Of a stretch of DNA of 64,000 nucleotides, positions 3,001 to 63,000 are shown piece by piece. How positions within the stretch are numbered: position 1 is the first letter of the stretch; each line of letters starts with the position of its first letter. Made by a program: the position numbers. The DNA comes from Perna viridis (taxonomy: Eukaryota), in contig CM074518.1 of the NCBI GenBank assembly GCA_037379345.1, positions 24,738,001 through 24,802,000 of the forward strand, read 5' to 3'.

Positions 3001-6000
3001 TGTTTTTGTTGCGATTTCAAATTTTCTTTTAATTGGATTCCTTTTAAAAATACCCAGCCTGCGTTTTTCTATCTGATTTCAGATATCTCTTACTAATTAC
3101 TAGTTATATGGGGTCGAAGGGGTCACACCTGAAGAAATCTACTTTTTGTATATTTGGTCTGATTTTGAAATTTATAATTTAATTTAAAATTTTGTGCAAT
3201 ATAAGGTCCAAACCATTTGATATATCCATAATAGATTGTAAGTCCTTGTACTTAAGTGTGTCAAAAACTAATATTGTGTCCACACTTATCCAACTGTTCA
3301 GGATTTGACTACCGCTGTCGTATTATGCTACACTTGCCAAAGCTCTTTATTATAATTTGTATTTCTCTACAGATTTTGGTTGAGGGAAGGACAGGAAGTA
3401 GTTACACAGGTGATATTGCAGTTGATGACTTCCAGTTGAGTCCATTTGCGTGTAGTACAGGTAATAAAAGTTCACTCTGCTGTAAACTCGGAAATTATTC
3501 CTGATGTAGCAATTTTTAAAAAATCCCAAAAATTTATACTTTTACAGTATCAAAATTGCAATTATGAATATTACCATTATTTTTTTTAATCAATAGGTTT
3601 TTACATTGTAATTAGGAATGGATTATCTGATTTCTACTATCAAAGTACAATAAACAGTATAATCTGTGTATACTTAACTCGGAATAATCTGAAAATCTTT
3701 CTAAATCAGATACTTTTTTATGTCCTTGTATACCAGTTAAAACATATTCTGAACCTCTGTAAACTGAACAATTGTCTAAACTAAACCAATCCAAATGTGA
3801 AAAACTGGTTTGGTTCAGACAGGTGTGAATGTAGTTAAATCATGGTATTTTCAGCAAGAGGTTAACAAGTTTTTAAAATACTGTAACTATCCATACTGGA
3901 GAAATTTAATGTGAGATGCTCTTTCTCTAATTTCTAAATGCAGAAAGATTTGAAATTGAAGTTAAAAATCTCCCAACCTCTGGACATAAGTTCATGAAGC
4001 AAAATGTCATGTTTTGATGACATTACATTAGAAGCAAACCAATCATATGCTGAGAACGAAAACCTCACCTGAGATTTCCAGTATTTACACAATGAGTTGA
4101 GAGATGGTTTAAATCACTGCTGCTGGTAGCTAGAGAAAATTTTTGTTTACTTTTTTCTGTAGTAAACACTTCGAGCAACACATTTAATTGCCAAGATGGA
4201 CGAGGAACTACAATTCCTATGAACAAAGTCTGTGACTTCAAACATGACTGTCCAAATGTCCAGGATGAAAGCAGATGTGGTAAGGTTCTATGATATTTTT
4301 TTTGTAAAGCAGAATTTCCTTTATAATATGAAGGTTGGGATCATGTGATTTTATGCTATTTACAAAATATGTTCCCCTCTTTCAAGGGCATACATACTTT
4401 ATAAATAAACAGAAACTTTAATTTTAGCCTGATTGCAAATGATATAAAGTTTGTTTTAAATAGTTTAGAATAAAAACTGTATGTTGTATTACTTAAATTC
4501 AGCTGTATAGATGCTTTCAGTTTCCATATTTGGACATTGATCATTTACCAATTGGTTATCAATATACAGACCAGTGACTAGAGGCTTTTTACAGTCACAT
4601 AACTTTGGTTGTCAATATACAAACCAGTGACTAGTGGCTTTTTACAGTCTTATGACTTTGGTTGTCAATATACAGACCAATGACTAGTGGTTTTTTATAG
4701 TCGCATGACTAATTACAACATCAGCAATTGTTATTCGTCTGCTAAATATCAGTCAGCAGTATATAGGTCGACAATCCGATAAGTGCATCAGGGATGCTTT
4801 TCTTCCCCTATATATTGATACATAATATTTTTTTTTAAATTTTTGTCTGTTTACATTTTCGTGTTGTTTCTGGTGAAAATCATGTCTCATACAAACATTT
4901 ATAAGTTCAGGAACTGTATGTACAAGTCAAGTGCTTTGCATTGTAGGAGCTTGTTCTTTTGAAACTGATTTCTGCTCCTGGACCTCTGTTGGAGGAGGAG
5001 CCTTTACATGGTCAAGGGGAGGTAACCAAACTGCTACTGCTAATACTGGCCCAAGATTTGACCACACTGTTGGAAACTCTGGGGGTAAGTCTTTACACAC
5101 TTTTCATCTGTCTGTCTGTCCATCTGACATAATGATTATGATGTTTTGGCTGGAGAACATCTGAGAGGGAAATTATTGAATTTGTTTCACAGTGAATTAT
5201 CGAAATATTTTAGGGAAGATGCAATAAATCATTGTTATCTGTATAATAAAATATTTTATTTAATGTTAATGAGTACAGTATTATAAATTCAATGCTGTGA
5301 AATCTGTCTAAACCTAACCCTGAAAAAAATTGAAAAAATGAAAACTGATCCAAACTAAACTACTGAAAATGTTTTATTTTTGTCATTGATAAAATGCATT
5401 TTAAACCTGTTTACACCAAAATTTACATAAAGAAAATAACACTAAAGGGGTTCTGTTTTGTGGTGTCTGATTTTGGTCTGATGAACACTGTTGACCACTA
5501 GTGTTCTAATAAGATAAATGACTTGTAAAAATTTTGATTATTCCACTAGGTCATTACATCTATGTTGATGCTAGTCAGGGAACACTAAATAGCCAAGCTG
5601 AAATTGATGGACCTTTACTTCAGCAATGCAGCTCTACCTGTCAAATCTCGTTCTGGTATCATATGTATGGATCAGGTAAGGGATATTCCATTAAAAAGTT
5701 ATTTAGGGATAGATCAGATATGGACAATCTCTTTAAAATGTATTCAGAGGCAGATCATGTATGGGTTTTTCCATTTAAAAATTATTTTTGGGTAGATCAG
5801 ATAAGAGCTATGAGGTAAAAGCTGTTTAATTTAATGTGTATTTATGGTTGTATCAGGTTTAGAGCAGTAACATTATGTAATACTAGACCATGTTAGTGAT
5901 ATTTTGTTACATATTTAGATCAGGTAATATTTTTTTCCATTTAACTTGTACTTATGAATAAAGCAGTTTAGGACTATTCCTTTTAAAATTTACATTTCAA

Positions 6001-60000: not shown

Positions 60001-63000
60001 ATGTCAAATGTGAAAGTCATCTATCAAGAATATTTTTACAACAGTATAACCACAGTGTTGGATCCAGAGTGAGGGCTTTGGGTATTGAAATTGCCCTTAT
60101 ATTAGAAATTGTTGTCAATTTTGTGCAAAATTTTTCCAAAAATGAGCAAATGATAGCTTTCTGGATTGGAACATTCCCCACATTTTATAATTTATTAGAT
60201 CTGTCCCAAAACAAAATATTTCCTAAACCTATACACGCACTATAAGCCACTTACTATTAGAAAACAATGCTGCAACTGCGTAAGTAGTCCCTGATATACT
60301 TTGAGGTGCTGCTTCTATGGCAATGACCCCAGCTATCGATATTGGTCCATAAGTAGCCAAGCCCACCATAAAACCAATCAAAGTTATAACAACCTGATAA
60401 AATATACAATATCTTCGAACTGACAGAATATCAAGCAAATGCATATACCGGGTATTGCATTGGGAAATTCATTATCATTCATGCCATATAATGCCCTCCA
60501 GACTGATATGGATTTTATGAGTGCCTGATATGGACTTACTATAGAAAATCCATACGACACTGGTATCATGTCCTTGCATGCTATTTCCCTCCCAGTATTG
60601 GACCTCAGTTATGACACACTTCCAGTAGTCAGCAATCCAAAATATGGCTGAGTCAAAGGATGTCAGGCCCATCAGATAATTCAATGAAAATGACACTTAT
60701 ACATTTATCAATGACATGAAAAACCCAAGAAGGAAAACCACAAGTGACAACAAAATCATCCATGGCTGATATAAAAACAAATTATCTACTAGAATTAGAA
60801 CAATTTCAACATTGTTAATGGAACAAAACTAAATCCACTATACATATTTTCTAAATATGTGATAAATAAATCTTTACATGGCATAACCATATTGGCCCTG
60901 GTATCATCCCTTGACCCATATCAGACCTCGGGCTAAAAGCCCTCAGTGAAATATGGGCGTCTCTGAATGATACCGGGGCTGATAGGATTTATGCCAGGTA
61001 AAAATCTATAATTCTCATATGTTAATTTTTGCTTGAATGCATATGATAATCATATGTGTGTAAACTAAAACATAAGATCATCAAATCATGCTTGATTCGT
61101 CATATGTTGCAAACCATATGATTCCCATATGTGGCTCATTTGGTTATGTATATTTTAATATAGGGCTTGATAACAAGAAAGATCTAAGATAATACTCCTT
61201 ATCTTATCATACATTTATCTCAACTTCATACATTCCACATATTGGCAAAATTTTGAAAAAATCTTTAAATTTTTTTTTTCTTGTCTCGTCAATCCTATAG
61301 TTCATTGCATATAAAAACTGGTCACACTTATTTTGTGTTTAAAAAACTTGGCAATTTCTTTAAGGTTTTCTCATGGTCCTGAAGATGTCATCTTATTTGA
61401 TAAACTAGATGATACTGAAAAGATACAGCACTTCATAATAAGCTTTATTATTGGTTCTGTTCACACAGTTAATTATGCTTTCTTGCAGATTGGTACATGA
61501 TGAACAACTGATTCTTGTTCAACACTTTAATTCTGTTGTAGGATTTTTTTTTAGTTTTCCATGCATAACTAACTTTTTCCATTCCAATATCAGTTTTCAA
61601 AGATTTTTTTTCTTTTGCTTAATGGAAAGTGGAACATAACATTATCCTATGATTTCTCGCATCAAAATTTTTACTTTACCAAGATGACAGAAAATGAGAA
61701 TCCTCAATTAAAAAATGATTACAAGGTTTTCCATCAATTAAAAAAATTTTACCTCTACCTTTGAAGAATGTTTTCCATCAATTAAAAAAATTTGCCTCTA
61801 CCTTAGAAGAATGTGTATCAATGAGCAAGGAAAAACAGTACAAAGCTGCTGCTAGTATTATGATGAAATGGATCCATAATGTTTTCCTTACTAGATGCTG
61901 GGGTACTGAGCTATTCTGAAAAATAAATAACCATATAAATGTAAAAATATATATCATATACTTGTCAGCACAAAATTATCTTCAAATACATACATACTGC
62001 ACAAGTTAAAAAATCTACAGTGTATGTTACAAAATTCTTAAAGTAATATACTTATGGTAAACAAGATTTTATTTGAATTTGGAATTATTTTGTAATTTGG
62101 AAAATTAAAAAAAAATAATAATTTGTAAAACTAAGAGGGTTAGTCATACCAGAATGGCTAAGGGGGTAAGGTTAGTTTGGCAGAAAAAGGCAAGAAAAAC
62201 TTACTTGACCCCCTTAGTCATGATGGCATGACTAATCCCCATAGTAGATATAAGTTCTATAAATATTTGTTTTACTTACTTTCTTTAATCCAAAATAATT
62301 CCACATTCAAGTAATACCTTGTTTGATTGCATTTACTGCTAAAAAATGGCTAAATTTCAGCATGCTTCAAATGTTGAACAAAAAATAATCCAAATTCTCC
62401 ATAATAAAATGTTCACATCTTCAATATATACAGAAACATTGTGCAAAGTTTGAACAATAGTGGTTTAATCCTTTTTGAGTGACTGATCACAAAAAGTAGG
62501 TACTCCTTAGCCTGATGGACAGAGTCTAGAAGCTACTAGACTACTTTCACCTTTGGTGTCGCAGGTAAAAATAGAAAATCTCATTCATTGTATTATGTGC
62601 CATATACTTGTGTGCTGCAATAGTAATATTGTTTTATTTCTATGTCCCATGAAGAACTATATTTAATTTTACAAAATTTTAAAGAAATTTCATAAAGGAA
62701 GTGACCAAGTTTAAACTATAATAGGAAATTTAATGCAATAAAAGAGGCAATTGACATATCAAAGGAAATTATGACATTGTGATGCCATTCCTCTGCTCCT
62801 TCATCATAACTATTTGGCACTACCAAGTCAAAAGTACAATCAGAAATTAAATTTAACGAGAATGGATATGGTGAATATGTCAAAGAGACAACAATCCCAC
62901 CTGGATGAAATATGTCAGCTCAAGGCCCAAGTTTGTTTTTTGCCGACAAAAGTCTATGTCTCCCCTTTCCTCAATCAAAAGGGTAAAATTCACACAAAAT

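What the first reader, a model, noticed from the sequence alone, without database searches (positions are those of the whole stretch)
5665..61825. Recurrent tandem duplications anchored on 5' splice sites in both genes
Seen: seven unrelated repeat arrays or echoes begin at, next to or across a donor site and extend into the intron. They follow MALRD exons ending at 5675, 14400, 25284, 27399, 43121 and 44271, and the SLC37A4 exon ending at 61802 on the opposite strand. Most units are about 37-53 bp (about 20 bp after 44271), their ages range from near-perfect to heavily decayed, and several regenerate donor-like GT motifs. I saw no comparable set at acceptors. Inference: either a mutational process focused on donor junctions (transcription/splicing-coupled breaks or slippage), or a filter in which donor-spanning duplications are neutral because the first donor is still used. 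Either way they supply raw material for intron sliding and exon extension.
[Added by the scan's program, not by the reader: the finding's places include an assembly gap (unread letters, written N; its length is only estimated) at 47214 to 47341. Whether the letters on both sides are continuous or in frame is not known: test that first.]
Basis: partly seen in the sequence, partly recalled or inferred. Interest (0 to 1): 0.65.

Follow-up and report, generated by a model that had tools for sequence, protein, structure and literature searches.

The report
Tandem repeats beside intron donor sites
In two neighbouring invertebrate genes, several short tandem repeats sit at the very start of introns and five of them copy the splice donor itself; the pattern is real but modest, and most likely reflects ordinary duplications surviving only where they do not disturb splicing.

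Summary
The window is invertebrate, not human: about 33% G+C, and its best relatives are MALRD1/2-like and SLC37A4 proteins of molluscs, echinoderms and a brachiopod. An independent exon model (55 complete introns) reproduces all seven exon ends. A repeat scan that does not use TRF recovers all seven repeats blind.

Five repeats really duplicate the exon tail and/or donor (5675, 14400, 25284, 27399, 61802). Two (43121, 44271) are arrays that start 10 and 27-29 nt inside the intron without containing the junction. No acceptor junction is duplicated (0 of 55, against 5 of 55 donors; Fisher P=0.057).

Of 17 intronic repeat loci, 8 lie in the donor zone and 1 in the acceptor zone. About 3.3 are expected (P about 0.01; 0.006-0.08 across nine settings).

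A filter-only model is not rejected (P=0.05-0.2). It tolerates overlap with the donor, protects the acceptor side, and lets the selection-pinned copy decay more slowly. Left edges scatter from -73 to +42, so nothing is anchored at the GT.

The closest precedent is the human F7 intron 7 minisatellite. Only one duplicate donor (27399+57) would give an in-frame extension. The assembly gap lies inside an intron and does not affect the finding. A genome-wide test and RNA data are still needed.

The parts
1..55074 (+). MALRD1/2-like gene, 5'-truncated by the window edge: 53 modelled exons and 52 introns. Repeated MAM and LDLa domains, an EGF-like exon and a hydrophobic (transmembrane-like) last exon. 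The 3' end is approximate.
   Evidence: Exon-by-exon Pfam hits. Named invertebrate relatives at 41-51% identity. tblastn blocks. Profile coordinates. Splice model. The transmembrane reading is by eye from the translation.
29530..39969 (+). Giant single exon (about 3,480 codons) with 18 MAM and 11 LDLa domains. It contains no repeat locus.
   Evidence: ORF 29511-39980; Pfam; no scan locus inside it.
59181..63482 (-). Last four exons of an SLC37A4-like gene: 63482-63397, 61915-61802, 60393-60255 and 59359-59184, then the stop.
   Evidence: Alignment to Mytilus trossulus SLC37A4-like residues 238-424; splice model.
5662..5847 (+). Donor-spanning repeat after the exon ending at 5675: units of 41-42 nt in an 83-nt higher-order period, old (copy at +77..+127 is 42/51 identical).
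   Evidence: Permissive TRF; scan locus 5670-5803; copies; junction echo score 40 against a threshold of 31.
14400..14745 (+). Donor-spanning 53-nt array after the exon ending at 14400: a decayed junction copy, three identical 53/53 copies (14506-14664), and an old copy at +299..+344 that includes 8 nt of exon tail.
   Evidence: junction echo score 37.
25225..25388 (+). Exon-tail echo: exon 25225-25256 recurs at 25357-25388 in the intron (28/32 identical, offset 132). The stretch between them is no longer recognisably repeated.
   Evidence: scan locus 25212-25388; junction echo score 44. TRF does not find it.
27357..27625 (+). Donor-spanning array after the exon ending at 27399: six copies (57, 55, then 32-43 nt). 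Every copy keeps CAG|GTT.GT. The second donor at 27456 is in frame and stop-free.
   Evidence: junction echo score 68.
43125..43364 (+). 37-nt array (about 6 copies) starting 4-10 nt after donor 43121. It does not contain the junction. The units carry AAAG|GTAGTC.
   Evidence: The junction query has no second copy.
44299..44587 (+). 20-nt G/T-rich array starting 27 nt after donor 44271. It does not contain the junction, and it holds 10 strong donor-like sites.
   Evidence: 3.58 donor-like sites per 100 nt against 0.23 in non-repeat intron.
61723..61822 (-). Young donor-spanning duplication at the SLC37A4-like exon ending at 61802: two units of 43/44 nt (-13..+73), 41/44 identical. The second keeps AAAG|GTAGAG.
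   Evidence: junction echo score 71.
2912..3147 (+).
49087..49385 (+). The only acceptor-zone locus: a 230-nt-period repeat ending 42 nt before acceptor 49428.
4552..4710 (+). Mid-intron 53-nt array. The seven other intron-interior loci are 10278-10389, 10777-10856, 15516-15785, 23504-23569, 41308-41477, 45754-46027 and 50423-50482.
55819..56025 (.). A second locus in this stretch is 57731-58139.
   Evidence: gene ends.
47214..47341 (.). Assembly gap (128 N, length only estimated) inside intron 45 (46942-47648). It starts 272 nt after the donor and ends 307 nt before the acceptor.
   Evidence: The flanking exons are a complete LDLa (46842-46937) and an exon starting at MAM profile position 1 (47663-47806). 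The junction is phase-compatible.

Best explanation
These are ordinary intronic minisatellites and tandem duplications, 20-150 bp long. They were made repeatedly by replication slippage or unequal exchange in AT-rich, short (median 649 nt) introns, and then sorted by an asymmetric selective filter.

1. A duplication that includes the exon tail and the donor leaves the real exon, followed by the first donor, unchanged. That upstream donor goes on being used, so the extra copies are simply intron and are silent. Rare use of a downstream copy gives a frameshift or a stop.
2. A duplication that touches the branch point, the pyrimidine tract or the acceptor, or that lies inside an exon, changes the product and is removed.
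3. The junction copy is held in place by coding and splice-site selection. A donor-spanning duplication therefore stays recognisable for longer than one whose two copies both drift.
4. Some seeds later expanded in copy number.

Shown here: the repeats, their positions, the donor/acceptor asymmetry, the absence of repeats from exons, and the fit of the filter model. Inferred: the slippage origin, the use of the first donor, and the silence of the copies.
For: - All seven sites are recovered blind, plus an eighth.
- 5 of 55 donor junctions are echoed in their own intron, against 0 of 55 acceptor junctions.
- 8 of 17 intronic loci lie in the donor zone and 1 in the acceptor zone.
- No locus lies wholly within the 20,065 bp of coding exon, against 17 loci in 39,184 bp of intron.
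- The filter model expects 4.85-6.15 of 17 loci in the donor zone, P=0.05-0.21.
- Left edges scatter from -73 to +42.
- The units at the seven sites are unrelated to one another, with no non-self matches in the window. Copy identities range from 100% down to about 73%. Both point to separate events at different times.
- At 25284 only the exon-derived 32 nt are still recognisable, as expected if the pinned copy slows decay.
- All but one of the listed duplicate donors would shift the frame or follow a stop.
- Weak, chance-level TRF arrays are symmetric: 4 near donors and 6 near acceptors, of 46. The detection method is therefore not biased toward donors.
- Precedent: in human F7 intron 7, only the most upstream of 5-9 identical donors is used (PMC1557585).
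Against: - Under the plain filter model the excess is still borderline (8 observed, 4.85 expected, P=0.053).
- Three donor-zone loci (2912, 43132, 44301) do not contain the junction. Neither the neutrality of donor-spanning duplications nor the pinned-copy effect explains why they sit within 42 nt of a donor.
- First-donor usage was shown in mammalian cells. This is an invertebrate with short introns, where the rules of donor choice may differ.
- There are no RNA data. The exon model rests on homology only, and three donors and one acceptor were corrected by hand.
Confidence: 0.55

Rival explanations
1. There is no real positional bias. This is a chance cluster in a gene with many short introns, noticed after the fact by a reader looking through many windows.
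For: - With standard TRF calls only 4 of 12 intronic arrays lie within 50 nt of a donor, against 2.1 expected (P=0.12).
- At the strictest scan thresholds P=0.066-0.077.
- Arrays are long relative to their introns, so about 3.3 of 17 are expected near donors anyway.
- The Fisher test of donor against acceptor echoes gives P=0.057.
- There is no correction for the selection of this window.
Against: - The donor:acceptor imbalance is 8:1, or 5:1 at the two strictest settings, at every setting tried.
- The five junction echoes score 37-71, against a 99.9th percentile of 31 and a maximum of 38 among 5,940 non-cognate comparisons.
- The total absence of repeat loci from exons shows that selection does shape where repeats survive.
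Confidence: 0.2
2. A mutational process is focused on donor junctions, such as breaks or slippage coupled to transcription or splicing at the 5' splice site, and it makes duplications there more often than elsewhere in introns.
For: - There is a 2.3-fold excess in the donor zone under uniform placement (8 observed, 3.2-3.5 expected, P about 0.01), stable across settings.
- Three donor-adjacent arrays that do not contain the junction are not explained by neutrality of donor-spanning copies.
- The pattern recurs in two unrelated genes on opposite strands.
Against: - Left edges spread over about 115 nt, with no common breakpoint.
- The filter model is not rejected (P=0.05-0.21).
- Repeat density between the genes (2 loci in 4.2 kb) is no lower than in introns (17 in 39.2 kb).
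- Five literature searches found no described process of this kind.
Confidence: 0.13
3. The arrays are kept because they work. Runs of donor-like or GU-rich motifs just downstream of a real donor would recruit U1 or other factors, so as to strengthen exon definition or suppress premature processing.
For: - Donor-like sites are 10-16 times denser in the 27399 and 44271 arrays (2.29 and 3.58 per 100 nt) than in non-repeat intron (0.23).
- The 43121 units each carry AAAG|GTAGTC.
Against: - Arrays 5675, 14400 and 2912 carry no strong donor-like sites.
- The units share no motif beyond what duplicating a donor produces.
- Copies decay freely, down to 73-82% identity.
- The real donors at these sites are not unusually weak: they score 1.2-7.4, against a median of 3.3 for all 55.
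Confidence: 0.07

Closest known systems
Human F7 intron 7 37-bp VNTR minisatellite (Borensztajn et al. 2006, PMC1557585; abstract and Discussion read)
   Same: A minisatellite at the 5' end of an intron whose first unit contains the exon-intron junction. The real donor is therefore followed by a row of identical or near-identical pseudo-donors. The unit size (37 bp) is in the same range. Sites 27399, 61802, 5675 and 14400 have this build.
   Different: F7 is a single locus, which its authors call an 'unusually arranged region'. Here 5 of 55 introns in one 64-kb window show it, at different ages. Exclusive use of the first donor was shown by experiment for F7 and is only inferred here. The organism is an invertebrate with short introns. 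43121 and 44271 do not include the junction.
Intron gain by tandem duplication of an exonic AG|GT proto-splice site, and intron sliding (Lehmann et al. 2010, PMC2891723, passages read; potato RdRp case, PMC4974935, search listing and abstract start only)
   Same: Tandem duplications that carry splice signals produce alternative splice sites in register. A duplication whose length is a multiple of three can shift an exon boundary, as the 57-nt copy at 27399 could.
   Different: Here the introns existed before the duplications. At least 10 introns sit at the same MAM profile position (about 131) and phase 0. The introns are 332-1,408 nt long, against units of 20-132 nt. No new intron was created and no boundary shift is seen.
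Tandem 5' splice sites a few nucleotides apart (PMC2423196, search listing only)
   Same: More than one usable donor lies close downstream of an exon.
   Different: Those sites are 3-12 nt apart and arise by point mutation. Here the spacing is 43-83 nt and comes from duplication.
Ordinary intronic minisatellites / VNTRs
   Same: Unit sizes of 20-70 bp, 2-6 copies, identities of 70-100%, AT-rich introns, and units that are unrelated from locus to locus.
   Different: About half of them here (8 of 17) abut or overlap a donor.

Membership tests
Boundary-spanning intronic minisatellite (F7 intron 7 type) | Tandem array at the 5' end of an intron | tested here: met
   2-6 copies at 5675, 14400, 27399, 43121, 44271 and 61802. 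25284 is a single echo, not an array.
Boundary-spanning intronic minisatellite (F7 intron 7 type) | The first unit contains the exon-intron junction | tested here: inconclusive
   Met at 5 of the 7 sites (5675, 14400, 25284, 27399, 61802): junction echo scores of 37-71 against a threshold of 31. Not met at 43121 and 44271, where the junction has no second copy.
Boundary-spanning intronic minisatellite (F7 intron 7 type) | Downstream units carry donor-like pseudo-sites | tested here: inconclusive
   27399: 5 of 5 downstream copies score 2.9-5.2 (real donor 5.2). 61802: 1 of 1 scores 2.1 (real donor 2.1). 5675: weak (1.9 against 7.4). 14400: none at or above 1.0.
Boundary-spanning intronic minisatellite (F7 intron 7 type) | Only the most upstream donor is used | not testable with these tools
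   There are no RNA data. Indirectly, domain-profile continuity leaves no room for extra residues, and all but one pseudo-donor would break the frame or follow a stop.
Boundary-spanning intronic minisatellite (F7 intron 7 type) | Copy number varies between individuals (VNTR) | not testable with these tools
   Only one assembly is available. The three identical 53-nt copies at 14506-14664 suggest recent change.
[quoted passage not shown] | The intron is as long as the duplicated unit and consists of one copy | tested here: not met
   The introns are 332-1,408 nt long and the units 20-132 nt.
[quoted passage not shown] | The intron position is novel, not shared with paralogous units | tested here: not met
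   Donors 2869, 25284, 27399 and 43121 share MAM profile position about 131 and phase 0 with at least six other units in the same gene.
Dispersed (transposon-borne) satellite | Related copies at other places | tested here: not met
   Tested within the window only. None of the seven arrays has a non-self match. Only 15516-15785 matches 57731-58139, in inverted orientation, at 70-78% identity. The rest of the genome could not be searched.
MALRD1/2-like protein gene | Alternating MAM and LDLa domains, then an EGF-like and a membrane-spanning C-terminal part | tested here: met
   Exon-by-exon Pfam hits, profile scan and named relatives. The EGF hit is below the cut-off, and the membrane segment is read by eye. 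Orthology was not tested.
SLC37A4 (glucose-6-phosphate exchanger) | Collinear similarity to named SLC37A4 proteins | tested here: met
   Four exons align to residues 238-424 of Mytilus trossulus SLC37A4-like at 57-76% identity. The Pfam hits for single exons are weak or absent.

The most novel reading that the evidence does not exclude
In this lineage, tandem duplications arise or persist preferentially at 5' splice sites across the whole genome. The cause would be a splicing- or transcription-coupled lesion near the donor, or selection for rows of spare donor-like sites. Boundary-spanning minisatellites would then be a regular feature of gene structure and a steady source of shifted exon ends.
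Probability: 0.13. Interest if true: 0.75.

Novelty: new member of a known kind. Interest (0 to 1): 0.4.

Why it matters
If the pattern holds genome-wide, this species would supply hundreds of natural 'duplicated donor' experiments of different ages. That would be a direct test of how the spliceosome chooses among identical 5' splice sites, a question studied so far at single loci such as F7 intron 7. It would also measure how often such duplications move exon boundaries.

As it stands, the window shows that the build seen at F7 is not unique and can recur many times within one gene. It also gives one concrete candidate for an in-frame exon extension (27400-27456).

For annotation, duplicated donors and exon-tail echoes are a trap for gene predictors. 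Protein alignments ran on into the intron at 27399 (blocks 27115-28158 and 27115-27513) and at 5675 (profile hit 5546-5767).

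Tried and rejected
- **45-nt junction query (-30..+15).** It flagged only 27399 and 61802 clearly, 5675 marginally, and one acceptor (29530, score 25) marginally. 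It was too short to see 14400 and 25284, so I replaced it with a 90-nt query.
- **Standard TRF.** It misses 5675 and 25284 and starts the 14400 array 61 nt too late. Permissive TRF yields many chance arrays, so I used those only as a control.
- **Automatic splice choice.** It gave implausible donors for introns 3, 17 and 18, and no candidate for intron 40. I replaced these by hand, using homology between the repeated MAM units: donors 1730, 12612 and 13029, acceptor 12898, and the 43121/43574 junction. Only one weak locus, which appears at T=30 only (12617), depends on a hand-set donor.
- **Point-rate null.** A null that treats repeat loci as points, ignoring their length, would give much smaller P values. 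I rejected it because an array cannot start within its own length of the intron's end.
- **Common origin or transposon origin of the seven arrays.** No non-self matches in the window.
- **RNA genes and tRNA-derived elements.** No Rfam family and no tRNA.
- **Excess of synonymous differences between copies 1 and 2 at 27399, as a sign that copy 2 is translated.** Considered by eye and dropped, because selection on the real exon alone would produce such an excess.
- **Literature.** Five searches found no genome-wide report of a donor-side bias of minisatellites. PMC4039745 and PMC10078293 (passages read) deal with other aspects of repeats and splicing.
- **Third protein search.** Not spent. The searches with two exons returned nothing above 51% and 71% identity, so the species' own proteins appear to be absent from the collection.

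Full report
**Source and the gap**

The window has 29-41% G+C, about 33% outside one long exon, and a single N run at 47214-47341. The best relatives of one MAM-coding exon are MALRD1/2-like proteins of abalone, sea stars, sea urchins and a brachiopod, at 36-51% identity. The best relatives of a minus-strand exon are Mytilus SLC37A4 proteins at 69-71%. I take the window to be an invertebrate genome, probably a mollusc or a near relative, and not human.

The gap lies in intron 45 (46942-47648). The exon before it is a complete LDLa domain (46842-46937). The exon after it starts a MAM domain at profile position 1 (47663-47806). The junction across it is phase-compatible. Nothing therefore suggests a lost coding piece, though a whole extra exon or a repeat array could be hidden there. 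No repeat locus lies within 1 kb of the gap. I did not fill it or look it up.

**Gene models**

That joined step was left out.

I mapped exons with tblastn of named relatives. I then used MAM and LDLa profile HMMs, built from the 18 domains of the window's own giant exon plus those relatives, to scan every plus-strand open frame. Splice sites were chosen by frame compatibility and a generic consensus score. Three donors, one acceptor and one whole junction (intron 40) were corrected by hand, using homology between the repeated MAM units.

The result is 52 plus-strand and 3 minus-strand complete introns, all GT..AG. They total 39,184 nt, with a median of 649 nt. The plus gene includes a 10.4-kb single exon with 18 MAM and 11 LDLa domains. 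It ends with LDLa, EGF-like and hydrophobic exons.

**Are the repeats there?**

The TRF tool reports arrays at or near five of the seven sites. With permissive settings, the arrays after 5675 and 14400 also reach the donor.

To avoid depending on TRF, I scored every 40-nt window against the next 400 nt and calibrated the score on non-cognate sequence. At a threshold of 36, 13 of 12,678 null windows pass, against 323 real ones. Clustering gives 19 loci: 17 in introns, 2 between the genes, and none wholly inside the 20,065 bp of coding exon.

So is an eighth donor-side locus (2912-3147, 42 nt after donor 2869) and one acceptor-side locus (49087-49385).

**What was duplicated**

| Site | Structure |
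|---|---|
| 27399 | Six copies. The first is the real exon tail plus donor (-43..+13). All six keep CAG\|GTT.GT. |
| 61802 (minus strand) | Two units of 43/44 nt from -13, 41/44 identical. |
| 5675 | Units of 41-42 nt in an 83-nt higher-order period. The copy at +77..+127 matches -6..+45 at 42/51. |
| 14400 | A decayed junction copy (36/44), three identical 53-nt copies, and an old copy at +299 that still carries 8 nt of exon tail. |
| 25284 | A single echo of exon positions -60..-29 at +72..+103 (28/32). |
| 43121 | 37-nt array beginning at +10. The junction itself has no second copy. |
| 44271 | 20-nt array beginning at +27. The junction itself has no second copy. |

A symmetric test used a 90-nt query across each junction against its own intron, with the threshold set at the 99.9th percentile of 5,940 non-cognate comparisons. 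It finds 5 of 55 donors and 0 of 55 acceptors (Fisher P=0.057).

The units at the different sites are unrelated to one another and have no other copies in the window.

**Is it more than chance?**

- Uniform placement. Each locus, with its own length, is placed uniformly in its own intron or in any intron. Then 3.2-3.5 of 17 are expected to start within -75..+50 of a donor. Eight do (P=0.008-0.010), against one at acceptors (mirror test P=0.039).
- Across nine threshold and window settings the counts are 5-9 against 1, and P=0.006-0.077.
- TRF-based counts give P=0.12 with standard settings (4 of 12) and P=0.004 with permissive settings and score at least 150 (6 of 9).
- Weak, chance-level arrays are symmetric: 4 near donors and 6 near acceptors, of 46.

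The excess is about 2.3-fold and nominally significant. It comes from one window that was chosen because the pattern had been noticed.

**Mechanism**

A filter model tolerates overlap with the donor and protects the last 40 nt before the acceptor. It expects 4.85 loci in the donor zone (P=0.053). If donor-spanning duplications also stay detectable twice as long, because one copy is pinned by selection, it expects 6.15 (P=0.21).

Further points agree with the filter reading:
- Repeats are absent from exons.
- The 25284 echo survives only over exon-derived sequence.
- The left edges scatter from -73 to +42.
- Of the donor-like sites in the arrays, only 27399+57 is in frame and precedes a stop. 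The others shift the frame or follow a stop, so occasional misuse would be cleared.

The human F7 intron 7 minisatellite is built in the same way, and there only the most upstream donor is used (PMC1557585, abstract and Discussion).

My best reading (0.55) is therefore ordinary slippage duplications sorted by an asymmetric filter. The rivals are pure chance (0.20), a donor-focused mutational process (0.13) and selected rows of donor-like motifs (0.07). What the filter leaves unexplained is why three arrays that do not contain the junction also sit within 42 nt of a donor.

**Comparison with what is known**

Four sites (27399, 61802, 5675, 14400) have the F7 intron 7 build. The case is not intron gain by tandem duplication. 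The introns are older than the duplications: at least 10 share MAM profile position about 131 and phase 0. They are also far longer than the units.

Five searches found no genome-wide report of a donor-side bias of minisatellites. The supplements of the papers were closed and not seen.

**What stayed unchecked**

- The rest of this genome.
- Orthologous loci.
- Any RNA evidence for donor use.
- Copy-number polymorphism.

Noticed in passing
window 29530-39969 (+): A single 10.4-kb exon encodes 18 MAM and 11 LDLa domains without an intron, while the same domains on either side are split into 2-4 exons each. Its G+C (0.40-0.41) is well above that of the surroundings (0.30-0.35). This may reflect intron loss through a processed copy, or a recent expansion of intronless repeats.
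   Followed up: partly
window 15516-15785 (intron 21) and 57731-58139 (between the genes): Two tandem repeats with periods of about 153-156 nt are inverted copies of each other (70-78% identity). They belong to a dispersed satellite or transposon-borne family, unlike the donor-side arrays.
   Followed up: partly
window 27400-27456 (+): The second copy of the 27399 unit is 57 nt long, in frame and free of stops, and it ends in a donor that scores the same as the real one (5.2). It could add 19 residues if used.
   Followed up: partly
window 14506-14664 (+): Three 53-nt copies are 100% identical. This is either a very recent expansion, likely to vary between individuals, or a stretch where the assembly's copy number is uncertain.
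   Followed up: no
window 44272-44600 (+): The intron start is strongly G/T-rich (G-C skew 0.34 for 44001-46000). It has 10 strong donor-like sites within the 279-nt repeat locus 44301-44579, about 16 times the intron background.
   Followed up: partly
window 47214-47341: The assembly gap starts 272 nt after donor 46941. Gaps often fall on tandem repeats, so another array may be hidden there.
   Followed up: no
window about 55075-59180: The two genes converge, with about 4.1 kb between their stop codons.
   Followed up: yes
window 5546-5767 and 27115-27513 (+): Alignments ran on past the real donors into the repeat copies: the MAM profile hit at 5675 (5546-5767) and the tblastn blocks at 27399 (27115-27513; 27115-28158). 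Automatic gene prediction could be misled in the same way.
   Followed up: yes
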